DNA of 64,000 nucleotides from the human T2T-CHM13v2.0 reference genome, Homo sapiens, in the NCBI RefSeq assembly GCF_009914755.1, contig NC_060930.1; one strand, 5' to 3'. Made by a program: the position numbers and the translations under genes. Below the pieces are notes generated by a model. That model ran no database searches, had not been told where the DNA came from, and saw nothing but the letters and a program-made list of their open reading frames with translations. Of this stretch, positions 3,819 through 49,526 are shown piece after piece. Positions within the stretch are counted from its first letter, which is position 1, and every line of letters begins with the position of its first letter.

Positions 3819-4249
<431 letters not shown>

Positions 4250-6584
4250 TCTCACGGATTCAGGTCCTCCCATGCTCCCAGTACAGGGCAAAAAGCTCCA
4301 CGTACATCACGCCTATGACCCAGGTATTATCATTTCTTTCTTGTATATAAAGAAGTGGGCGTTCAGGAAGATTAAGTGACTCATCCAAGGTCACCCAACC
4401 TGTGAGTGGCAAAGCCCAGATTCCAACCCAGCACATAGCTCTTGACCCCCACTGCAGCCTTGCAGACATCACCACTGTCGTGGTGCCTGGCTATAACAAC
4501 TTCCTCTGAGCCCCACTGCAAGCCTCATCTCACTCAAAGAAAAGCTGAGAGGTCTCCTACCCAACTCACCCCAACAGGATGTCACATACGGAGCTTCTCA
4601 GTAATATAGCACTACCACTGCTACTAATACCACCACCTCTCTATTATACAGCACTTTCTATTTAGGCAGTTCATACAGTATTATCTTACTTAATCCTCAC
4701 AACACTACACTCCCATCTCCATCTCACAGAGGAGGAAACTGAGGCATACAGAGGTTGATGAGTTGCCCAAGTTTACACAGCTAGGAAAGAGCCGAGCTAG
4801 GATTCAACCCCAGGCAGTCTCACCCCAGTGGTACACCCCCTCCCTATAATGTCTGCTGGCTCCTCCTTCAGCGGTAGCTGTCACAAGCACCATAGTTTGG
4901 GGCTTGCCTCCCTCCTCTGAGGCCTCTCTGCAGGGGTCTGAGGCCAACTGGACCCCTGAGGGGTGGATGTGGGAAACCTATCTGATGAGCACCTTCAGCT
5001 CATCCTCTCCAGCTGTGGTAACACCATCCCCACCACCCACCCACTCACAGGAGCTAGAGCTGGAAGGATGAGATCCTGGGAGAGCAATCAACGCACAAGC
5101 ATGAATAGGACACCTACTGCATGCCAAGCTTCAAGCTGTGGCAGGTGCAGGAAGTAGAAGATTCTGTCCTTGCTCTCCTGCCAGAGGCTCCAGTCCCCAG
5201 AAATGTCCAAAGGAGTAGCCCCTGCCACCCCCACCCCCTTTAGTGCTGGCTGCACCAGATGTTGGCAACACTTAGAAACAGGGCTAAAAATAGACTCTAT
5301 AATGAGTCTGTGCTAAGAATAACTTGGGCAAACAGCCCTCCAGGAGAGGACACTCTCTGACAGGGAGCCACCACCTCCTCCCACCTCACAACCCAGCCTG
5401 GCCTACCCCCTGGCCCATCACTCAGAGTCCCCCACAGCTAGCAGAGGACCTGGAGCATTTCGAACCTAACTGCTGTGTTGATGGAGGCATCGGCATGCCC
5501 GCGTGCACCCTACATCACAAGCCAGGTGACCGGCCACCCTCCATGAAGGGTGGGGGCATCAAAGGACTGGGCAGAAGCTGGTGGGAACTCCCTGCTCCAG
5601 GCAGAGCTGTACTGAGGCACCAAGTCACTTGAGTTGTTTCCCCACTCTAACACCAACTCCCAGCAGGAAACTAGGAAAATAGGGCCCCCCAGCTCGAAAA
5701 TCGTGCTTCATTTCATGTCTCACCTGTGACATGGGTCCCTCGAGTCAGCTAGACCGGCCCACTTCAGACATGTTCAGGGGAACTGAGAGCAGAGAGAGGC
5801 AGCAGTACACTGAAAAGCAGACATCAACTGTGGCCGGGGGAGGGGATCAGAACTTTAGGGCCCCAACCATGCTAGCTCCCACAGCCAGGGCCTCCTTTTC
5901 CCATGTCCTCACTGCCCCCAGAAATTATAAGAACTGTCAGACTCATGGATATCTGCATATGGATTGAAAATTAGTAGAGCACGTTCATGTATGATATCAG
6001 AGCTGAACTTCTCAAAAACTCCAGAAGACAGACAAGATGATGAGTTTCATTACACAACTGAGGAGAATGAGGCTCAGGAAATGGAATTAACTTGCTAGGG
6101 GCCCTGCAGCTGGGATGAAGCCTTATTGCCATCTATTAGTCTGAGAAGGATCTCCCAGCAGCCATAAACTAGGCATAGCTCCATCTCATAGCAATGCCCA
6201 GAAGGAAACAGACACCCTCTAATGCTGGGAGCAAGCAGGAGGGGGCCAGAAAAAGGTAAGGAGCTCTCAGGAGGAAACAGCAGCACACACAACACTTCTC
6301 TGAGGACAAAGGAAGAAGGAAGAGGAAGAGGTATCCTGGGCAGAGCACTGGCCATGGAGTCAGGAGCAAGGAGTCTGGCCCTAGCTCTGTAACAGGTAAC
6401 TGCATAACCTGGGAAAATCCCTTCCTAAGTTTCATTCCAGGTCTTAGTTTCTCTATCTGGAAAATGGGGCTTTAAACACCAGGCCTTTGAGATACCCTAG
6501 AGTATATATCATGACCACATATTGGAGATGTACAACAAAAATTAGCATATCACAGGCTCTGACAAGCCCTACAGCAAAGAAAAC

Positions 6585-24721: not shown

Positions 24722-25279
24722 GTTGCTGGACAGAAATTGTCTGAGCTCCTTTCATGTCACCTTCCCTTGTTGGAAGTTCACAGGGTGCGGAGGCATCATT
24801 CTCTACTTTCTCCTCTTCCCCGCCCCTTTTTCCCTGTCTCCTCCCCCAGCCCCTCCCCTGCTTTTCTTCTCCTTCCCCTCCTCCTTTTCTTCCTCTCTCT
24901 CCTCCTTCCCCACATACAATGTTGCTCCTGGTTTCTGGATCTTTTGCTAAGAGGCTCCTGAGGAGGACAGGGATGAAGTCCAAAGGGACAAGATCCCTTG
25001 CTGAGTTGGTTCCAGCAAATAGGCTCGATTTCTCTGTGACTCAAGTAGGAACACTCTCCCCCGGCCCGCCACCCACCCACCCATGATGGCGCTACCACTG
25101 TCTTCCCTTTCCAGGGGAAAAGTATGAACTTTAAGCTCTGAGGGTTACAGAGCCCATCCCAAGCCATGCCTTAGGTCCCATTTCTCTTAGAATCACAGTG
25201 ACCCACCAGGAAACCTTGTAGCCACTCAGGGAAAACTCCCTTCCAAAAACAACAGGATGACCAACATAAAGAAGAACTA

Positions 25280-25285
25280 TTTATT
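25280..25285 (-). terminator. PGC: PGC polyadenylation signal AATAAA
   Basis: tttatt on the plus strand, about 120 nt after the stop codon. Confidence 0.85.
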
Positions 25286-25407
25286 ATTAGAGAAAGTCCA
25301 GAGTCCAGAAAAAGAAGGCTGAATCCAGAGTGGAAAGACAGATACAATGCCCTAGGAGGGTGCAGGGTCAAGAGGAAGAGGGGAGCCCACGTGTCGAGGC
25401 AGCAAGT

Positions 25408-35937
<10,530 letters not shown>

Positions 35938-36022
35938 GATGCTGGTCCCCAACTGGCCACAGAGGAAGAGCAGCTCTGAGTTCTGCAGTCGCAGTGGAGT
36001 GAAGACCTGGGCACTCTTTCCT

Positions 36023-40369: not shown

Positions 40370-42220
<1,851 letters not shown>

Positions 42221-43310
42221 GAAGAACTGAACCCAGGGTTTTAAAATGAGCTCTTACTCTCCTGCCAAAATATTCCATCACTGAGGATGTGCCAGGCAGG
42301 GTACTTTCTATGGGTTTAATCTTGCAATTCTCACAACGATCACACAACATAGGTTACCTTATCCCCATTCTACCCTGATAGAATACAGAGGAGTCCATTT
42401 TATCTGTCTGTATCTCAAACATCTGGAAATAGATCTCTGTATATCTAAATGCATGAATAGACAGATTGACTATTTTTTCTCTGGTCTTTGATTAACATAC
42501 CTTTGCTTGCAGATGACTGCTTCCTTTCTGGGTTGGTGGAAAGGAGGTTGTACTGGATGGATGAAGGCACATTTCGCAGGGCAGCCCAGCTTCAGGAAGG
42601 GGAGGGATAGGGTGGAGCCTTAGGATCAGCTAGAATCTGAGATGCAAACACTACCAGGACCCTTTCTCCATTTCTCATTCCTGCTTCTCTTTGCTTTGCC
42701 CTCTCTTCTCTCTCTCTTTCCTCCTGTAGGTTGGCTTTTTCCATCTAACTGACCAACAGCAGCTGAGTCTTACATTTCCAGAGAAATAATTAACCCAAAA
42801 TTCCCAGGAAAGTTCTCTGATTGGCCCATCCTAGGTCAGGTGTCCTCTCCTGAATCAGTCAACTATGGCCAGCAGGTAGGATCATATAAGAATTTGGTGG
42901 CTCCCTCAGGAAGCATTTTGAAGAGTGTGGACAGGAGGAGTTCCCAGAAGAAGTAAGGGATGTTTCTGGGAAAATAATATTGGATATATCCACATAGATT
43001 TATTTCTGATGACTTGTGGACTCTATTCAAATTCTTCACTCACTCTTCTTTGCACATATTAAAGAATGTGATGTGTGACATGCAATCGACTTAAAAGGCC
43101 AATCTCCACCACCTGTGAATGCTTTGACCCTGACAATTCACTTACCCTTTCTGAGCCTGAGTTTCCTTGACTGTAGAGTGGAATAATACCTACCCTGCAG
43201 TCTTGCTATAATGATTCAATAAGGCCCTGGTTATGAATGTGCCAGCACAAAGCTGGCCCTCACTATCAGCTGAGTATGAGTCTTTTTCTTTAAATTGGGT
43301 GGGGGGCTAG

Positions 43311-44115
<805 letters not shown>

Positions 44116-44156
44116 AATCACATTTTAAAAAGAAGATCAGAACAAAGGTCTCTGAG

Positions 44157-44203
44157 GATAGACAGATATAGATAGATAGATAGACAGGCAGACAGACAGA
44201 TAG
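44157..44203. repeat. (GATA)n/(GACA)n tetranucleotide repeat
   Basis: Direct reading. Confidence 0.8.
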
Positions 44204-44508
44204 AATAAGAAGGAGGAGGAGGAGAAGGGAGAGAAGAAAGGAGACAGAACACTAGTCCTCAGAGAACCCCAATGGCAACGAGGGGAGGCAGTCCTTGCTC
44301 TCAGGGAGTCCTGGGCTGCTGGGGAGACTACACATTCACCCATCATAACATAGCCCACAATGGCAAAGATGCAGAGGAGAGTTCAGGTGAAATAGGGATG
44401 AGTGACCTCCTTTGAACAGCCACGCTTTTATTGTAATAAATTTCAGCAGACATATATAACAGGTGCATTCACCTGTGATTTTATGGACACAATGGGTTAA
44501 AACAAAGG

Positions 44509-44619
44509 GACCTGCCAATAACTCTGGCATTCACAGGGCTCCAGTCGGCCTTACCTGTGCACAGCTGGCTGTTCATGTTCCCAAAGGTGACTTCTCCCGA
44601 AGTAACTTCATCCTGTTGG
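44509..44619 (-). pseudogene. Pseudo-exon 6 (QQDEVTSGEVTFGNMNSQLCTGKADWSPVNAxSYWQV)
   Basis: Phase-2 acceptor catag|C; aligns to [39 protein letters not shown]; one 1-nt deletion. Confidence 0.85.
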
Positions 44620-44851
44620 CTATGAAACCAAAGACACAGACTCGGGAAGAGGCAGCTGCAGGGTGATCAGACCCCAGTTTCAGGAACCCATTCTGTGAAT
44701 CAACCCAGCAGTCCTGGCCCACTTTGTCACCCTCCTGCTTCTCTTGTACCCACACAGTCCCTGGCTGTGGTACTGTGAACAGAAGCTTCTGTTCAGAGAT
44801 AGATCAACATGGAGGAGAGGAGGAGGAGGCTCCTGGGCAGGGTTCTCTCAC

Positions 44852-45049
44852 CTGCTGAGACAGAAACTGACCACGGCCCTGGAATCAGATTCCACTTAAC
44901 AAGGCAGTCCATGACTGCAGTGGCCCCAAGTACAGAGACAGATGGATAGGACAGCCCTATTATCACATCAAAGGGAATGCTTTCGAAGGTGGTGCCAGCT
45001 CCCTCTGGCTTAGGCCGTACTCCCGGTTGGTGATGGCCAAACCCTGGGT
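44852..45049 (-). pseudogene. Pseudo-exon 5 (TQGLAITNREYGLSQRExGTTFESIPFDVIIGLSYPSVSVLGATAVMDCLVKWNLIPGPxVSFCLS)
   Basis: gcag|ACC ... AG|gtgaga; 198 nt versus 200 nt in PGC (two 1-nt deletions); 27/66 identical residues by hand alignment. Confidence 0.92.
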
Positions 45050-45187
45050 CTGCTCCCCTGAGAGGAGGGGAATCCACTGGGGGTGGCCCTCAGGAGAACC
45101 AGGACGTCAGAGCCTCCCTCAGCAGGAAGGAAGCTAGCTGTACTCTCAGCTCACTCGGGCACCGGCTGGCTGCCTGCCCCCACCTAT

Positions 45188-45269
45188 CGTCACAACATCA
45201 AAGCCCAGGCCTCTGCCGAGACGGCGGACAGGGAGAACAGACGGCCCTCCAGGGAGTGCCTGTGCCTGG
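45188..45269 (-). pseudogene. Pseudo-exon 4 (RHR...HSLEGRLFSL...LGFDVVT)
   Basis: Phase-1 acceptor aacag|CC; HSLEGRLFSL aligns to [10 protein letters not shown] and LGFDVVT to FGYDTLT; internal deletions; donor reads ataggt. Confidence 0.7.
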
Positions 45270-45542
45270 CTGTTAGGAGCGAAGCATGCACATCAGGACC
45301 ACACTGCCCCTCCCCTCCCCTCACCCCCACATCAGCGCCATCTGGTCCCAGTGGTGACCTACACCCCACCCTGGACCCTGTGCTCTCCTAAATGGTGAGC
45401 CGAATGCCACACTGGCTCCTGTGGCTTCTCCTGCCTGGTGCCCTCACATTTTGCCTCTGCCACTTCCAATTCTGGTGGCTCTTCCCACCTTGCCTCCTCC
45501 ATGTAGCCCCTGCCTGAATCCCCAGCCCTCCAAGGGGGCCTC

Positions 45543-45838
45543 TTTTTTTTTTTTAGACGGAGTCTTGCTCTGTCACCAGGCTGGAGTGCAGTGGCGCGAT
45601 CTCGGCTCTCTGAAACCTCCACCTCCCATGTTCAAGCGATTCTCCTGCCTTAGCCTCCCGAGTGGCTGGGACTACAGGCATGAGCCATCAGGCCCAGCTA
45701 ATTTTTGAATTTTTAGTAGAGATGGGGGTTTCACCATGCTGGCCAGGCTGGTCTCGAACTCCTGACCTCAGGCGATCCACACCCGCTTTGGCCTCCCAGA
45801 GTGCTGGGATTACAGGCGTGAGCCACCGTGCCCGGCCG
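45543..45838 (-). mobile_element. Alu (in pseudogene intron 3)
   Basis: Antisense Alu flanked by duplicated ggggcctcttttt. Confidence 0.92.
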
Positions 45839-46072
45839 AGGGGCCTCTTTTTGGACTCTATATTGGACATCATGAAACATACGGCCTATAATGTGCACTG
45901 CTCATCCCCGCCTATGCTCCTGGCCTTTCTGGAGAGACTGGAAGCTTCAGGAGGACAAGAATGATGCCTTGTGCCACTCTGGGACTTACTGCTACAGCTC
46001 ACAGGAGGGAGGGACTGTTTCTCCCACAAGCTCTAGGCACCTCCCTCCTGTGGGCTCTAGATGAGCACGCAC

Positions 46073-46184
46073 GACAGCTGGGCATTCACAGAATGACGGC
46101 ACCGCCAGGTTGGCTGAGTCCATGCCAAAGAGGATCATAAAGCTCTGAGGGTGTCCCCAGCTTGATCTCCCCAGAGTAATACAT
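46073..46184 (-). pseudogene. Pseudo-exon 3 (MYYSGEIKLGTPxQSFMILFGMDSANLAVPS-FCECPAC)
   Basis: 20/39 identical to PGC exon 3 by hand alignment; 112 nt versus 118 nt; donor gtgcgt; acceptor reads ccccaa. Confidence 0.9.
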
Positions 46185-46325
46185 TTGGGGAGAGAGATTC
46201 AGCCACTGAAGGTGAGTTGGGCCCCAGGCCCACAGTGACCCCTAGTCCCACTCTTCAGCAGCTCCCACGGGGGATGACTCTGACCTTGACAGATGACTTC
46301 CCCACTGTCTTGAGTCTTTAAGATC

Positions 46326-46603
46326 TCTCCCCTCAGACTGGGGCTCCCTGAGGACAGGGCTGTGTCTCCCCTCAGACTGGGGCTCCCCGAGGACGGGGCT
46401 GTGTCTCCCCTCAGACTGGGGCTCCCCGAGGATGGGGCTGTGTCTCCCCTCAGACTGGGGCTCCCCGAGGATGGGGCTGTGTCTCCCCTCAGACTGGGGC
46501 TCCCCGAGGATGGGGCTGTGTCTCCCCACAGACTGGGGCTTCCTGAGGACGGGGCTGTGTCTCCCCTCAGACTGGGGCTCCCTGAGGATGGGGCTGTGTC
46601 CTC
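46326..46603. repeat. 39-bp minisatellite, about 7 copies (tctcccctcagactggggctccccgaggatggggctgtg)
   Basis: Near-identical tandem units, seen as 13-aa repeats in the ORF track. Confidence 0.92.
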
Positions 46604-46716
46604 TCAGGACTCAGCTTCATTCAGCTTTGGTGACACAGTAAGAAGTGAGTCACCCCTGTGAGGAGGTGGGTGGTGACAGGTGGGTGGGCAGAGCCTGACC
46701 CACTCAGGTGTACAGG

Positions 46717-46996
46717 CAGTCATGTATTACTTAACGACAGGAATGTATTATGAGAGAGGGGTCATTAGGAGACTTCATTTTTGTGTGAACATGATGGAGT
46801 GCACTTACAGAAACCTAGGCTGTGTGGTAGGGCCTGTTGCTCCTACCCTGACCCGCACAGCATGTCATGGTCTTGAATACCTTAGGCAACTGTAACACAA
46901 CGGTAAGCATTTGTGTGTCTAATCTTAGACAAGATACAGTAACAATACAGTATTATTATCTTATGGGACTGCAGTGTATAAGCCTCTCTCATTGAT
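46717..46996. mobile_element. Tigger3a/MER7A (Golem)-like DNA transposon
   Basis: cagtcatgtattacttaacgacagg ... acttacagaaacctag ... gtaacacaacggtaagcatttgtgtgtct ... tcttatgggac, matching the recalled Tigger3a consensus. Confidence 0.75.
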
Positions 46997-46999
46997 GCC

Positions 47000-47093
47000 T
47001 GACATAGTTGAGATGTTTGTTGGCAGGGTCAGGCTGGAGTTTCTTCAGGAAGTCTGAGAGTGAGAGCCGCTCCTGCATTTCTTTAGCAGGACC
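47000..47093 (-). pseudogene. Pseudo-exon 2 (VLLKK...MQERLSLSDFLKKLQPDPANKH)
   Basis: Phase-2 acceptor gccag|G; aligns to VPLKK...[22 protein letters not shown]; internal deletion; homology ends at the Tigger element. Confidence 0.8.
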
Positions 47094-47394
47094 CTGGCAG
47101 GTGGGAGTTCAGCTGATTTCACTCATAGCCCAGTTTCTCTTAAGTCCAGCCAACCACGAGTTAAGGCTCTCCAGCCAAGGTTAGCATGAGGCCTGGGGCT
47201 GAGATGGGCCACAGTCTCATTGCTTTATTTAATCATCTCTTGCTGCCATCAGTGATGGATTCAGTGGAGAGACAGGGTTGAACGTGACGTACGAGAGCAG
47301 GAAATCTAATCTGCTCCAAGAGAAATCTAATCTAATCCCTGGATCCAGGGAAGGAAGGAACTCCTGAACTTTGATGTCTTTCAAGACCCGGCAG

Positions 47395-47555
47395 GTTAGC
47401 CAGGTATGGTGGCATGCGCCCGTAGTCCAAGTTTCTCTGGATGCTGAAGCAGGAGGATTGCTTGAGGCCAGGAGGTTGAGGCTGCAGTGAGCTATGATTG
47501 AGCCACTGCACTCCAGCCCAGATGACAGAGCAAGACCCAGTCTCAGAAAAAAAAG
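47395..47555 (+). mobile_element. Alu right-arm monomer (FRAM-like)
   Basis: Single right arm with A tail. Confidence 0.8.
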
Positions 47556-47623
47556 ACCAGGCCTGGAGGACACTCACACTTGACACCCCTGTCCCCACCC
47601 CTGATCACCCCCTGACTCTGTAC

Positions 47624-47682
47624 CAGAGCAGCCCTTCAGAGAAATGGAAGCCAGTGACGGCAAGGAGCAGCCGCTTGCTCAT
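47624..47682 (-). pseudogene. Pseudo-exon 1 (signal-peptide remnant MSKRLLLAVTGFHFSEGLL)
   Basis: ATG to TG|gtacag is 59 nt and phase 2, the same as PGC exon 1; resembles pepsinogen signal peptides of the MKWLxLxLxCLxLSEGL type. Confidence 0.75.
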
Positions 47683-49526
47683 GGGCAGCTTCTACCTCTT
47701 CACCAAGGCTGGAGGGAGAGACCCCACCATAGCCCAGCCATGAGCTTAGGAAGCAGCAGATCAGGGTAGAGGGGCCTTTATTGAGGAGGAAATGGGAAGG
47801 CAGGAGCAGCCCTGAAGAAAGCAGGGGGAATGATCCAGGCAGGGGAGGAGTGTGGGCTGGCGGGGGTCTGGATAGGACTCTTTGTAGGGAGCTCCCAGAC
47901 CTGTTCCAGAGGCGCCAGGAGGAACCCATGCTCCTTTGCCTTGTTCTCCCAGTACCCTGTGGGAGTTGGAGGGGCAGCAGGAGGCAATGCAGGTAAGAGA
48001 GGCCATGAAGGAGGGGTTGTTTGGACTGAGCTGGATGTGGTCCCAGACTAGGTCTCTCTGGGTGGGGTTGAGAATTGGGTGGCAGAAAGGGGAGAGTCCA
48101 GTGTCCAGGTTCCGGCACATCAAACGCCAAAGAACGTAATCACCAGGGCCTGGATAAGGAGCAGGAACCGAGCCTAATGCAAAAGTCCCAAACCAAACAC
48201 TGATAATGGGCTCAGGAGGCTCTAGGCCTGGACCTCACGCTTCCACCCCGTGGCCCCTAGTCAAGCCTCATATGGATACGGTTACAGTCCCAGGTCCTTG
48301 GAGCCAGCTCAGATCCTGGCCAATCTAGTTTGGCTTCTGGAGAGGTGTGCCTGTGAGCAGCAGTGTGCCACTGGCCACGGCTCTCCCTGTGCTCAGGGAC
48401 TCCTAGTGTGGGACACCAGGGGCCCATGACGGGGGCTGGGGCTGAGCAGCCTCCAGAGGGATGCCCCTTGGTAGGTATGTATAGCACATCAACTCTTCCC
48501 AACATCCCAACATCCAGAGGGACTGGCTCTGTGTGCCCATTGTACAGTGTGGAAAACTGAGAACTGGAGCAGATAGGGGGAACCCCAGCCTCAGGGGGTC
48601 TTCATGCACCCCACAGTGATGGGGAAGAGAAAGGATCCAGAGGCCTTAGATGAGCCTTAAAGCCACCTGCATTGACTTCCTGCCTGAAGATCCCCTTTTG
48701 CTGATTCTGAGGTTACCTGGGAGGTGTGTGTCTGACTGTGCCTGTTTCCTGCCAAGTCTGGGGACCCTCCCCCAGCCCCGCTCAGATTCCAGGGAGCTGA
48801 GTCTCTGATCCTAAAGTTCCAGGAGGATCTCTGAGAATCTCCACTTTTTCCCTTTGTAGGAGAATGTTTCACTGCTGCCTAGTGCTAGGACCGAGGCCCC
48901 AGGGGCTTGTCCTCCAGGGAGTCTGTCTCACTTCTGCTGTGCTCTCTCTGCTGACTCCCCAGACCTGCTCTGGACATGAATATGCCTTTCCACCCACAGC
49001 ACTGCTGCTGCATGTCCCAAAGCCCTGGGTGTGTGGTGGGGCTTGGCATCCAGGTTACACTTGATCACAGGTCCAGCAGACAGCAGAGACCAAATCACAG
49101 GGACAGGAGCAGTGAGATGGGGCCTCCACAAGGCCTGGCCTTGCCCTCAGGAGTTCGGGGCTGGTGGAGTGCTTGGCGGTGCCTGAAGGACCCTGCTCTG
49201 CAATCTCTGGCTCCAGGGATGGGTCACAGTGTCAAGGGAACTGTCCCCCCAGGCTTCCAGCTCAAATCTGCCCCTCTTACCCCCAAATTCCTTTCCCATA
49301 TTAGTAAAAGTTTTCTCTTCTTCCAGTTGTCAGACCCCAAACCTCAGAGTCCTCCTTAATCCTCTTTTTCCTTTTCCCATATCCTACTTATATTTCGATT
49401 GTCAATGCCCTATTGGGTCCACCTTCAGAATACATCCCAAATCTGTCCACCTCTCCCCTTTTCCACTGCCACCACCCAATTCCAAGCCACCATCATCTCC
49501 CTCTAGATTATAGCAGTAGCCTCCTA

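What the first reader, a model, noticed from the sequence alone, without database searches (positions are those of the whole stretch)
44509..47782. Hidden fossil second pepsinogen gene in tandem upstream of PGC
Seen: six minus-strand segments align in order to PGC exons 1-6 with the same intron phases (2,0,1,0,2). Exon 1 is 59 nt in both; exon 5 is 198 vs 200 nt; exon 3 is 112 vs 118 nt. Hand alignments give about 41% (exon 5) and 51% (exon 3) identity to PGC. Frameshifts hide most of it from the ORF track; only ORF 44793..45077 shows a fragment (PFDVIIGLSYP). Established: pepsinogens share a 9-exon structure, and extra pepsinogen-C-family paralogues (Pgb, Pgbc, Pgc2) exist in other tetrapods. 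Inference: this is an ancient tandem paralogue, not a recent PGC copy, since motifs such as SEGL, MYY-GEI and ITN-E-GLS look like non-human PGC-family proteins. I do not recall it being annotated in human, but cannot check.
Basis: partly seen in the sequence, partly recalled or inferred. Interest (0 to 1): 0.92.

Follow-up and report, generated by a model that had tools for sequence, protein, structure and literature searches.

The report
Decayed second pepsinogen-C gene beside PGC
Between the human PGC and FRS3 genes lie the badly eroded remains of a second stomach-enzyme (pepsinogen C type) gene, most likely the Pgc2 copy that marsupials, birds and reptiles still use and placental mammals were thought simply to have lost.

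Summary
On the minus strand, 8.5-11.8 kb upstream of PGC, five collinear segments match pepsinogen-C exons 1, 2, 3, 5 and 6. Exons 3, 5 and 6 each beat 200 of 200 shuffles over the whole 22.7-kb interval. Exons 1 and 2 become significant only with non-eutherian queries. A type-C profile ranks six fossil pieces, in order, as the top 6 of 1,107. Exon 4 is not supported and exons 7-9 are not detectable. Exon 1 is 59 nt and ends at a GT. Exon 5 is 198 nt between an intact acceptor and GTGAGA.

The gene is dead: at least four frameshifts, the first catalytic DTGS reads GMDS, there is an Alu and a minisatellite in introns, and the 3' half is missing.

It is not a recent PGC copy: there is no DNA-level match and AU rejects a PGC1 grouping (p=0.019). 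Identity, exon-5 scores, a propeptide gap, clade-specific residues and the ML tree all favour Pgc2. Support is modest (74/0), and a position sister to PGC1+Pgb is not rejected (p=0.13).

RefSeq does not annotate it, and the two pepsinogen papers I read do not mention it. It is a new member of a known kind, of moderate interest.

The parts
47775..47783 (-). TATA-like AATAAAGG motif about 100 nt upstream of the fossil ATG. PGC has TATAAAAG at a similar distance. Weak and not significant.
   Evidence: the two motifs fall in the same columns, but only 84 of 214 columns are identical, so promoter homology is not shown.
47624..47682 (-). Exon 1 relic (signal peptide): ATG, 59 nt, phase 2, followed by GTACAG.
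   Evidence: alligator Pgc2 query scores 40, 0 of 500 shuffles. 58 of 67 queries end at 47626-47635. Human PGC does not detect it. Own HMM E=7.5 only.
47437..47563 (.). Partial Alu in intron 1.
   Evidence: Masked repeat in the annotation file. Many genome-wide matches at 73-81% identity for this stretch. The name Alu is from my own knowledge of the sequence.
46992..47093 (-). Exon 2 relic (propeptide). Acceptor AG ends at 47094; core match 47084..47007. It has an internal deletion of about 7 codons plus a frameshift. The 3' end is unclear and there is an in-frame stop after 46992.
   Evidence: score 61 with wombat P0173 and bird P0159, 0 of 200 shuffles each. HMM positions 30-55, E=0.014; acceptor position.
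46326..46600 (.). 39-bp minisatellite, 7.1 copies, in intron 2.
   Evidence: 95% matches. Related arrays on chr6 at 40.57 and 39.11 Mb.
46073..46184 (-). Exon 3 relic, 112 nt. One frameshift after G-T-P and one codon missing. The first catalytic motif reads G-M-D-S where D-T-G-S is expected. The acceptor is AA instead of AG. The donor GTGCGT resembles PGC's gtgagt.
   Evidence: score 91, 0 of 200; 21/37 to Pgc2; E=0.0019 and 0.69 for the two frames.
45535..45842 (.). Full-length Alu inserted between exons 3 and 5.
   Evidence: Masked repeat. Dozens of matches at 86-89% identity genome-wide.
45188..45283 (-). Possible exon 4 trace (ends L-G-F-D-V-V-T where L-G-Y-D-T-V-T is expected). Not significant.
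   Evidence: best score 35, 12/27 identity. Shuffles reach 39. Absent from the HMM hit list.
44852..45049 (-). Exon 5 relic, 198 nt, with two 1-nt frameshifts, an intact cag| acceptor and a |gtgaga donor, ending in phase 2. It holds the only visible ORF fragment.
   Evidence: 108, 0 of 200; 34/65 identical to Pgc2 proteins; 27/64 to PGC; 23/65 to Pgb; E=1.1e-6 and 0.18. Pfam Asp E=0.012.
44503..44619 (-). Exon 6 relic with an intact tttcatag| acceptor and one frameshift. Similarity stops at Y-W-Q-V and no donor is recognisable.
   Evidence: 76, 0 of 200; E=3.1e-5.
43155..43199 (-). Exon-9-like trace in the right order and on the right strand. Not significant.
   Evidence: score 41 against shuffles with mean 30.5, sd 4.4, max 52. 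54 of 67 queries point to the same 20-nt bin. HMM E=24-72.

Best explanation
This is the in-place, unprocessed remnant of a second type-C pepsinogen gene. It stood head-to-tail upstream of PGC on the FRS3 side of the ancestral tetrapod Pgc cluster. Most likely it is the human relic of Pgc2, the lineage still active in marsupials, birds, crocodilians, turtles and squamates and reported as absent from placental mammals.

It does nothing as a protease. The first catalytic aspartate is gone, at least four frameshifts and an in-frame stop break the frame, exon 4 is eroded or lost, and exons 7-9 (which carry the second catalytic aspartate) are deleted or unrecognisable.

Shown: homology, exon order, strand, three intact splice sites, the lesions, and that it is not a recent PGC copy.

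Inferred: Pgc2 orthology, and loss of constraint roughly 100 Myr or more ago. After that it decayed neutrally by substitutions, small indels, Alu insertions and a minisatellite expansion.
For: Homology and layout: (the top 6 of 1,107 stop-free pieces are fossil pieces in collinear profile order).

Gene structure: exon 1 is 59 nt followed by GT; exon 5 is 198 nt between AG and GTGAGA; the exon 6 acceptor is intact.

Dead: DTGS is replaced by GMDS; frameshifts in exons 3, 5 (two) and 6; no exons 7-9.

Ancient: the only DNA matches in the genome are itself, Alus and the minisatellite. The terminal branch is 1.8 changes per column. Identity to sauropsid Pgc2 is 45.9% where marsupial Pgc2 has 75.1%; that ratio of 0.61 corresponds to about 0.23 neutral substitutions per site in my simulation.

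Type C: the fossil lies inside the type-C clade at 100/99*, outside pepsinogen A and cathepsin E outgroups.

Pgc2 rather than PGC1 or Pgb:
- The ML tree puts it on the Pgc2 side of a 94/98 branch that unites PGC1, reptile Pgc1 and Pgb.
- AU rejects fossil+PGC1 (p=0.019) and disfavours fossil+Pgb (delta lnL 7.0, p=0.076).
- Mean exon-5 score: Pgc2 135.5 (marsupial) and 138.4 (sauropsid); mammalian PGC1 114.2; Pgb 97.2.
- Mean identity: 45.9% and 45.7% to Pgc2; 40.5% to PGC1; 40.2% to Pgb.
- It keeps 4 of 11 Pgc2-specific residues, against 1 of 16 PGC1-specific and 1 of 10 Pgb-specific.
- It shares the one-residue propeptide gap found in 28 of 28 Pgc2 and 1 of 39 other proteins.

Position: Castro et al. 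state that Pgc1 maps on the Tfeb side of the cluster (PMC3298455 Discussion). In a Tasmanian devil BAC a progastricsin gene follows FRS3 by about 18 kb on the same strand (PMC3414760 table). In human the fossil's ATG follows FRS3's 3' end by about 11 kb on the same strand.

No intact eutherian Pgc2: of 31 eutherian proteins among the 118 full-length hits, 17 are PGC1, 14 are Pgb and 0 are Pgc2.
Against: Fossil+Pgc2 has only 74/0 support.

AU does not reject the fossil as sister to all of PGC1+Pgc1+Pgb (delta lnL 0.73, p=0.132). It does not reject Pgb at the 0.05 level.

Reptile Pgc1 scores almost as well as Pgc2: sum 341.9 against 344.5-355.5, and identity 44.1%. Slowly evolving references resemble any old sequence.

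Clade-specific columns are few (4 strict, 11 relaxed).

The fossil's frames were chosen by similarity, which inflates identity and makes the decay estimate a lower bound.

Pfam alone is below threshold and the genome-wide Pfam scan misses the fossil.

I could not read any other mammalian genome, so neither orthology by synteny nor shared lesions were tested directly. The gene order in other tetrapods rests on one sentence and one table in papers whose figures I could not see. No amphibian sequences were in the tree.
Confidence: 0.75

Rival explanations
1. It is the remnant of another ancient type-C paralogue, not Pgc2. This could be an otherwise unknown lineage sister to PGC1+Pgb, or an old stem-mammal duplicate of the Pgc1/Pgb ancestor.
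For: AU does not reject the fossil as sister to the whole PGC1+Pgc1+Pgb group (p=0.132). Reptile Pgc1 scores are close to Pgc2. The branch is very long, so placement is unsure.
Against: It needs an extra lineage that no living amniote in my 118 hits shows. Pgc2 is a known lineage missing from exactly this locus in placentals. The propeptide gap, the initial M of exon 3 and 4 of 11 Pgc2-specific residues point to Pgc2.
Confidence: 0.13
2. It is the copy of pepsinogen B left behind when Pgb moved from the Pgc cluster to its present locus (human 1p13) in the mammalian ancestor.
For: Papers describe Pgb as arising in the cluster and being translocated in mammals (PMC3298455 and PMC2441467, passages). 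AU p=0.076 is not below 0.05.
Against: Pgb gives the lowest scores and identity of all clades: exon 5 mean 97.2, identity 40.2%. Delta lnL is 7.0 against it. Only 1 of 10 Pgb-specific residues is kept, and it lacks the extra propeptide residue that 19 of 19 Pgb proteins have. The exon 3-5 tree excluded it from the Pgb-plus-bird clade at 98* (quick tree).
Confidence: 0.07
3. It is a recent tandem duplicate of human PGC (PGC1) that decayed quickly.
For: Tandem position, same strand, same exon sizes.
Against: No nucleotide-level match to PGC. AU rejects fossil+PGC1 (p=0.019). Human PGC fails to detect exons 1 and 2, which non-eutherian proteins find. 1 of 16 PGC1-specific residues is kept.
Confidence: 0.02
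4. It is chance similarity or compositional artefact, with no gene remnant at all.
For: Pfam is below cut-off. The fossil is absent from the genome-wide Pfam scan. Three of nine exons are at noise level.
Against: 0 of 200 shuffles reach each of exons 3, 5 and 6. 0 of 200 reach the chain score. The top 6 of 1,107 pieces are collinear. Splice sites sit at the expected places.
Confidence: 0.005

Closest known systems
Pgc2 (annotated 'gastricsin-like' in marsupials, birds, crocodilians, turtles and squamates; nomenclature of Castro et al. 2012, PMC3298455)
   Same: Highest identity (about 46% over 187 columns) and highest exon-5 scores. Shared propeptide gap. M at the start of exon 3. The I-T-N motif. 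ML placement on the Pgc2 side. Position on the FRS3 side of PGC.
   Different: The human copy is dead: catalytic motif lost, at least 4 frameshifts, exon 4 and exons 7-9 not recognisable. Membership in the clade has weak statistical support (74/0).
Human PGC (progastricsin, Pgc1), 8.5 kb downstream on the same strand
   Same: Same family (type-C pepsinogen). Same strand. Exon 1 is 59 nt in both. Exon 5 is 198 against 200 nt, with the same phase at the ends of exons 1 and 5.
   Different: Only 40.5% mean identity to mammalian PGC1. No DNA-level similarity. AU rejects a PGC1 grouping. PGC is intact and expressed, and the fossil is not a gene any more.
Human PGBP (pepsinogen B pseudogene, 1p13; older symbol PGCP1) and CYMP (chymosin pseudogene)
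   Same: They are also unprocessed, unitary pseudogenes of gastric aspartic proteases in human.
   Different: Both are annotated and keep all or nearly all exons, with far higher scores (PGBP exon 5 scores 196 against PGC, the fossil 108). They carry only a few stops or frameshifts, so they are much younger. PGCP1 in papers refers to the chr1 locus between PIFO and OVGP1, not to this relic.

Membership tests
Peptidase A1 (pepsin-like aspartic proteases, Pfam PF00026) | Significant match to the family profile | tested here: inconclusive
   Pfam: 1 of 5 pieces matches, E=0.012, 15.5 bits, below the 19.9 cut-off. Not listed among the 90 genome-wide matches. My own type-C HMM gives E=1.1e-6, 3.1e-5 and 0.0019 for three pieces, and the shuffle controls are clean. 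So it is homologous, but below the curated membership score.
Peptidase A1 (pepsin-like aspartic proteases, Pfam PF00026) | Two catalytic Asp motifs (D-T/S-G) | tested here: not met
   The first motif reads G-M-D-S where the three reference rows printed (human PGC, a marsupial Pgc2, a marsupial pepsin B) have D-T-G-S. The exon carrying the second motif (exon 7) was not found. It is therefore a relic, not a working member.
Peptidase A1 (pepsin-like aspartic proteases, Pfam PF00026) | Nine-exon pepsinogen gene structure with conserved phases | tested here: inconclusive
   Exons 1, 2, 3, 5 and 6 are in order. Exon 1 is 59 nt, phase 2. Exon 5 is 198 nt, ending in phase 2 with AG and GT intact. The exon 6 acceptor is intact. 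Exons 4 and 7-9 were not found.
Pgc2 lineage of type-C pepsinogens | Falls inside the Pgc2 clade in a tree | tested here: inconclusive
   The best tree has fossil+Pgc2 on one side of a branch, support 74/0. The alternative, sister to PGC1+Pgc1+Pgb, has p-AU 0.132.
Pgc2 lineage of type-C pepsinogens | Pgc2-specific residues and the propeptide one-residue gap | tested here: met
   Gap: 28 of 28 Pgc2, 1 of 39 others, and the fossil has it. M at the start of exon 3: 24 of 28 against 0 of 39. It keeps 2 of 4 (strict) and 4 of 11 (relaxed) Pgc2-specific residues, against 1 of 16, 1 of 8, 1 of 10 and 1 of 8 for the other sets. The numbers are small.
Pgc2 lineage of type-C pepsinogens | Lies in the Tfeb-Frs3 cluster, on the Frs3 side of Pgc1 | tested here: met
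   Human order is TFEB, PGC, fossil, FRS3, all on the minus strand (given annotation). That Pgc1 is the Tfeb-side gene in other species comes from one sentence of PMC3298455. A devil BAC has FRS3 followed by a progastricsin gene on the same strand. I could not read other genomes.
Unitary (unprocessed) pseudogene | Introns retained, disabling lesions, and no intact gene of the same lineage in the genome | tested here: met
   Introns and splice sites are present. Frameshifts, a stop and a lost catalytic motif. The genome-wide PF00026 scan lists matches only on chr1, 6 (PGC), 11, 12, 19 and 21. By position I assign these to the annotated aspartic-protease genes and pseudogenes, to two loci I take from memory to be BACE1 and BACE2, to the chr1:115.48 Mb relic, and to two isolated weak hits.
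Recent segmental duplicate of PGC | Nucleotide-level similarity including introns | tested here: not met
   The DNA search of the whole genome with 44480-47800 returns only itself, Alu copies and minisatellite relatives.

The most novel reading that the evidence does not exclude
The relic is an undescribed physical trace of Pgc2 in placentals. If the same lesions are shared across all placental orders, it dates one pseudogenisation event to the placental stem and gives a rare-genomic-change marker tied to a change in gastric proteases. Candidate lesions are the 2-nt loss in exon 3, the two 1-nt losses in exon 5 and the loss of the 3' half. If the lesions are not shared, Pgc2 died several times and may survive intact in some placental lineage.
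Probability: 0.4. Interest if true: 0.45.

Novelty: new member of a known kind. Interest (0 to 1): 0.35.

Why it matters
Published work treats Pgc2 as simply absent from placental mammals. A recognisable relic at the expected place shows that the gene was lost by decay in place, not by clean deletion or assembly gaps. It fixes where the gene stood, and it provides lesions that can be compared across placentals to date the loss. It also adds an unannotated pseudogene to a well-studied clinical-marker locus (PGC). It changes nothing about human physiology and is not a new kind of element.

Tried and rejected
Exon 4. PGC, 106 fragment rows and 67 full-length references gave only noise in 46075..45050. 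The weak candidate at 45283..45188 is kept as inconclusive.

Exons 7-9. Four Pgc2 queries over the whole interval and 67 queries over 44500..41800 gave noise. The only exception is a consistent but non-significant exon-9-like trace.

Other relics in the 22.7-kb interval. The HMM found nothing else with E below 1.

Promoter homology. 84 of 214 columns are identical, which is not evidence.

Rfam. 0 families in 42500-48500.

Pfam on stop-free pieces was too weak to decide.

The length window of the search for homologous proteins kept full-length proteins out of reach of any stop-free piece of the window. I reached them in three steps: a PGC exon-3 open frame, then a 156-aa snake fragment, then a 7-row profile headed by a 234-aa row. 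Each search listed the best 120 only (of 159, 141 and 3,644). 292, 203 and 4,165 unnamed candidates were left out by the tool. No amphibian protein was among those listed.

Rows left out:
- The tree used 66 of the 118 full-length hits, picked by hand for taxonomic spread, plus human PGC.
- The tree used 42 references, 4 outgroups and the fossil.
- The exon 3-5 tree had 112 rows: the stored fragments of at least 140 aa, human PGC, four human paralogues and the fossil.
- The clade labels are mine, taken from the tree.

Literature. Searches were run; 'progastricsin pseudogene' returned 0 papers. I read passages and two sections of PMC3298455, and passages of PMC13389413, PMC2441467, PMC3414760, PMC9394163 and PMC9356722. 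None of the passages I saw mentions a chr6 relic. Their figures and supplements (synteny maps, gene tables) were not visible and may bear on gene order and on whether a remnant was drawn. GENCODE and Ensembl pseudogene sets could not be checked.

The time estimate uses my recollection of human-lineage neutral divergence, not a tool result.

Full report
WHAT IS THERE

RefSeq annotates nothing between PGC (window 25267-36000, minus) and FRS3 (from 58738, minus).

A tblastn search of the PGC protein, spliced in a script from its annotated coding exons, was run against 36001-58700. It gave minus-strand hits in query order:
- residues 33-54 at 47078..47013 (E 1.3)
- residues 83-129 at 46150..46016 (E 0.002)
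- residues 138-208 at 45113..44874 (E 8e-5)
- residues 208-244 at 44645..44532 (E 0.002)

The best collinear chain scores 116.7 bits. 200 shuffled PGC proteins gave mean 56.5, sd 13.2, max 92.3, and none reached the real score.

FRAMESHIFT-AWARE ALIGNMENT

The matches were visibly split between frames. I wrote a local protein-to-DNA aligner that allows frameshifts (BLOSUM62, frameshift penalty 12). I ran each PGC exon peptide over the whole interval on both strands, with 200 shuffles each.
- Exon 3 scores 91 at 46178..46076, 20/35 identical.
- Exon 5 scores 108 at 45046..44856, 27/64 identical.
- Exon 6 scores 76 at 44615..44509, 15/36 identical.
- No shuffle reached any of these (means about 39, sd about 3.5, maxima 47-54).
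- Exon 2's best hit is in the right place (47078..47013) but scores only 39, which 58 of 200 shuffles reach.
- Exons 1, 4, 7, 8 and 9 were at noise level with human PGC.

CURATED PROFILES ARE WEAK

Pfam Asp matches only the exon-5 piece, at E=0.012 and 15.5 bits, under the 19.9 cut-off. That is 1 of 5 pieces. The six-frame PF00026 scan of the whole genome lists 90 matches, none in the fossil. The relic is therefore far more eroded than the annotated human pseudogenes PGBP and CYMP, which that scan finds easily.

REFERENCE PROTEINS

The word search only sees proteins of 0.55-1.75 times the query length, and no stop-free piece of the window is long enough to reach full-length pepsinogens. I climbed in three searches.
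- The open frame around PGC exon 3 gave P0001-P0120, mostly bird fragments covering exons 3-5.
- A 156-aa snake fragment gave N-terminal fragments, including a wombat one.
- A 7-row profile headed by a 234-aa Anolis row gave 118 new full-length type-C pepsinogens (best 120 of 3,644 listed; no amphibians among them).

A tree of 66 of them plus human PGC resolves three groups and one unresolved set:
- A Pgc2 clade (100*) with birds, crocodilians, turtles, squamates and four marsupials.
- Mammalian PGC1.
- Pgb (100*).
- A set of reptile Pgc1-like genes, left unresolved in that tree.

This matches the scheme of Castro et al. 2012 (PMC3298455; abstract and passages).

By best BLASTP hit, the 118 split into 37 Pgc2, 37 Pgb, 26 reptile Pgc1 and 18 mammalian PGC1. 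The 31 eutherian proteins are 17 PGC1, 14 Pgb and 0 Pgc2.

EXONS 1 AND 2 APPEAR WITH THE RIGHT QUERIES

A wombat propeptide and a bird type-C propeptide each score 61 at 47107..46992. 0 of 200 shuffles reach that over the whole interval.

The exon 2 acceptor AG ends at 47094. About seven codons are missing after the first five residues. The frame then runs through the conserved D-P-A-x-K motif to a stop.

Upstream, 58 of 67 references place exon 1 ending at 47626-47635. An alligator query scores 40 (0 of 500 shuffles within 47108-48300). A marsupial query scores 35 (4 of 500). The DNA shows an ATG at 47682 and exactly 59 nt, then GTACAG. Human PGC misses this exon because its signal peptide lacks the S-E-G-L tail that the fossil and most non-eutherian proteins share.

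PROFILE CONFIRMATION

A profile HMM was built from the 67 full-length proteins and searched against all 1,107 stop-free pieces of at least 12 residues from both strands of the interval. Six fossil pieces are ranked first, in collinear order:
- exon 2, E 0.014
- exon 3a, E 0.69
- exon 3b, E 0.0019
- exon 5a, E 0.18
- exon 5b, E 1.1e-6
- exon 6, E 3.1e-5

Exon 1 ranks eleventh at E 7.5. Nothing else in the interval has E below 1.

WHAT IS MISSING

Exon 4 is not supported. 67 references score 20-35 in 46075..45050, against shuffles with mean 25.3, sd 3.4, max 39. A candidate at 45283..45188 has 12/27 identity and a plausible exon end, but it is within noise.

Exons 7-9 were not found with four Pgc2 queries over the whole interval or 67 queries over 44500..41800. 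An exon-9-like 15-residue trace at 43199..43155 scores 41, where shuffles reach 52, although 54 of 67 queries point to the same 20-nt bin.

STATE OF THE GENE

- Exon 5 is 198 nt (PGC 200) between cag| and |gtgaga and ends in phase 2.
- The exon 6 acceptor is intact.
- The exon 3 acceptor reads AA. Its likely donor GTGCGT gives 112 nt against PGC's 118.
- There is one frameshift in exon 3, two in exon 5 and one in exon 6.
- The first catalytic D-T-G-S reads G-M-D-S.
- Intron 2 holds a 39-bp minisatellite of 7.1 copies.
- An Alu lies between exons 3 and 5, and a partial one lies in intron 1.
- No Rfam family matches.

NOT A RECENT COPY

A DNA search of the whole genome with 44480-47800 finds only itself, Alu copies and minisatellite relatives.

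WHICH LINEAGE

Mean exon-5 scores are 135.5 (marsupial Pgc2), 138.4 (sauropsid Pgc2), 127.6 (reptile Pgc1), 114.2 (mammalian PGC1) and 97.2 (Pgb). Four-exon sums are 355.5, 344.5, 341.9, 326.6 and 308.7.

Exon 5 is 34/65 identical to an Antechinus and a gecko Pgc2. It is 27/64 identical to human PGC and 23/65 to a marsupial Pgb.

Over 187 aligned columns the fossil is 45.9% and 45.7% identical to Pgc2 (sauropsid, marsupial), 44.1% to reptile Pgc1, 40.5% to PGC1 and 40.2% to Pgb.

In a careful ML tree of 47 rows, the fossil lies inside type C (100/99*). It is outside the branch uniting PGC1, reptile Pgc1 and Pgb (94/98), on the Pgc2 side with support 74/0 and a terminal branch of 1.8.

AU tests:
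- fossil+PGC1 is rejected (delta lnL 5.6, p=0.019)
- fossil+Pgb is disfavoured (7.0, p=0.076)
- fossil as sister to all three non-Pgc2 groups is not rejected (0.73, p=0.132)

Clade-specific characters agree with Pgc2 but are few:
- The one-residue propeptide gap is in 28 of 28 Pgc2 and 1 of 39 others, and the fossil has it.
- M at the start of exon 3 is in 24 of 28 Pgc2 and 0 of 39 others.
- 4 of 11 Pgc2-specific residues are kept, against 1 of 16 (PGC1), 1 of 8 (Pgc1), 1 of 10 (Pgb) and 1 of 8 (all non-Pgc2).

POSITION

All four human features (TFEB, PGC, fossil, FRS3) are on the minus strand, in that order. Castro et al. write that Pgc1 maps on the Tfeb side of the cluster (Discussion). A Tasmanian devil BAC table lists FRS3 followed about 18 kb later by a progastricsin gene on the same strand (PMC3414760). 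The human fossil's ATG lies about 11 kb beyond FRS3's 3' end, on the same strand. I could not see the synteny figures or read other genomes.

AGE

On the fossil's columns, marsupial and sauropsid Pgc2 are 75.1% identical, while the fossil and sauropsid Pgc2 are 45.9% identical. The ratio is 0.61. In a simple neutral simulation on PGC codons, that ratio corresponds to about 0.23 substitutions per site. This is a lower bound, because only recognisable parts were aligned. From memory, not from a tool, human-lineage neutral divergence since the placental radiation is of that order. The estimate therefore fits a loss of constraint in the placental stem, roughly 100 Myr or more ago, and agrees with the published absence of Pgc2 in placentals.

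PRIOR KNOWLEDGE

- PMC13389413 (2026) repeats the tandem arrangement next to frs3. In the passages I saw, it discusses pseudogene remnants only for ctse.
- PGCP1 in two human-genetics papers is the 1p13 locus between PIFO and OVGP1, which is today's PGBP.
- A search for 'progastricsin pseudogene' found 0 papers.

I found no description of the chr6 relic. I could not check GENCODE or the papers' figures and supplements.

VERDICT

This is a real, ancient, unprocessed pseudogene relic of a type-C pepsinogen. It is most probably the placental remnant of Pgc2. I put the family-level claim near 0.95 and Pgc2 specifically near 0.75. It has no expected function. It is a new member of a known kind and of moderate interest.

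Noticed in passing
G000 chr1:115483128-115486296 (+), locus L005:3128-3205, 3847-3972, 6201-6296: A second unannotated aspartic-protease relic. Three collinear plus-strand pieces resemble exons 3, 4 and 6 (tblastn E 3e-8, 1e-4, 2e-6). The best matches are a fungal aspartic proteinase (exon 3) and fish cathepsin D-like proteins (exons 4 and 6), not pepsinogens. The nearest annotated gene is a lncRNA 30 kb away. It could be the human trace of nothepsin, which PMC13389413 says mammals other than monotremes have lost. That link is my guess.
   Followed up: partly
window 46326-46600: A 39-bp minisatellite (7.1 copies, 95% matches) sits in the fossil's intron 2. Related arrays at about 90% identity lie on chr6 at 40566093-40566809 and 39105234-39105669. 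The ORFs it creates on both strands are repeat artefacts.
   Followed up: partly
G000 chr1:111397709-111398197: Pfam Asp matches to PGBP's last exons lie about 1-1.5 kb beyond the annotated 3' end of the PGBP gene record (111399203). The RefSeq pseudogene record therefore seems to stop short of exons 8-9.
   Followed up: no
proteins P0011-P0120 (bird 'PEPC protein, partial', about 148 aa): The bird exon 3-5 fragments fall into two well-separated clades (33 and 63 rows), and several species have one of each on a single contig. Both group with pepsinogen B, not with Pgc2, which suggests a tandem Pgb duplication in birds. The N-terminal 97-aa 'Gastricsin, partial' fragments look like split halves of the same genes.
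   Followed up: partly
protein P0173 (wombat, 119 aa): Its first 20 or so residues look like translated intron (a polypyrimidine tract read as L-L-P-P-P) before the true exon 2. The part of its match to window 47107-47094 that lies upstream of the acceptor is not evidence of homology.
   Followed up: no
window 43480-44140: A cluster of Alu-type repeats lies directly downstream of fossil exon 6, where exons 7-8 would be expected. Insertion-associated deletion may have removed the 3' half.
   Followed up: no
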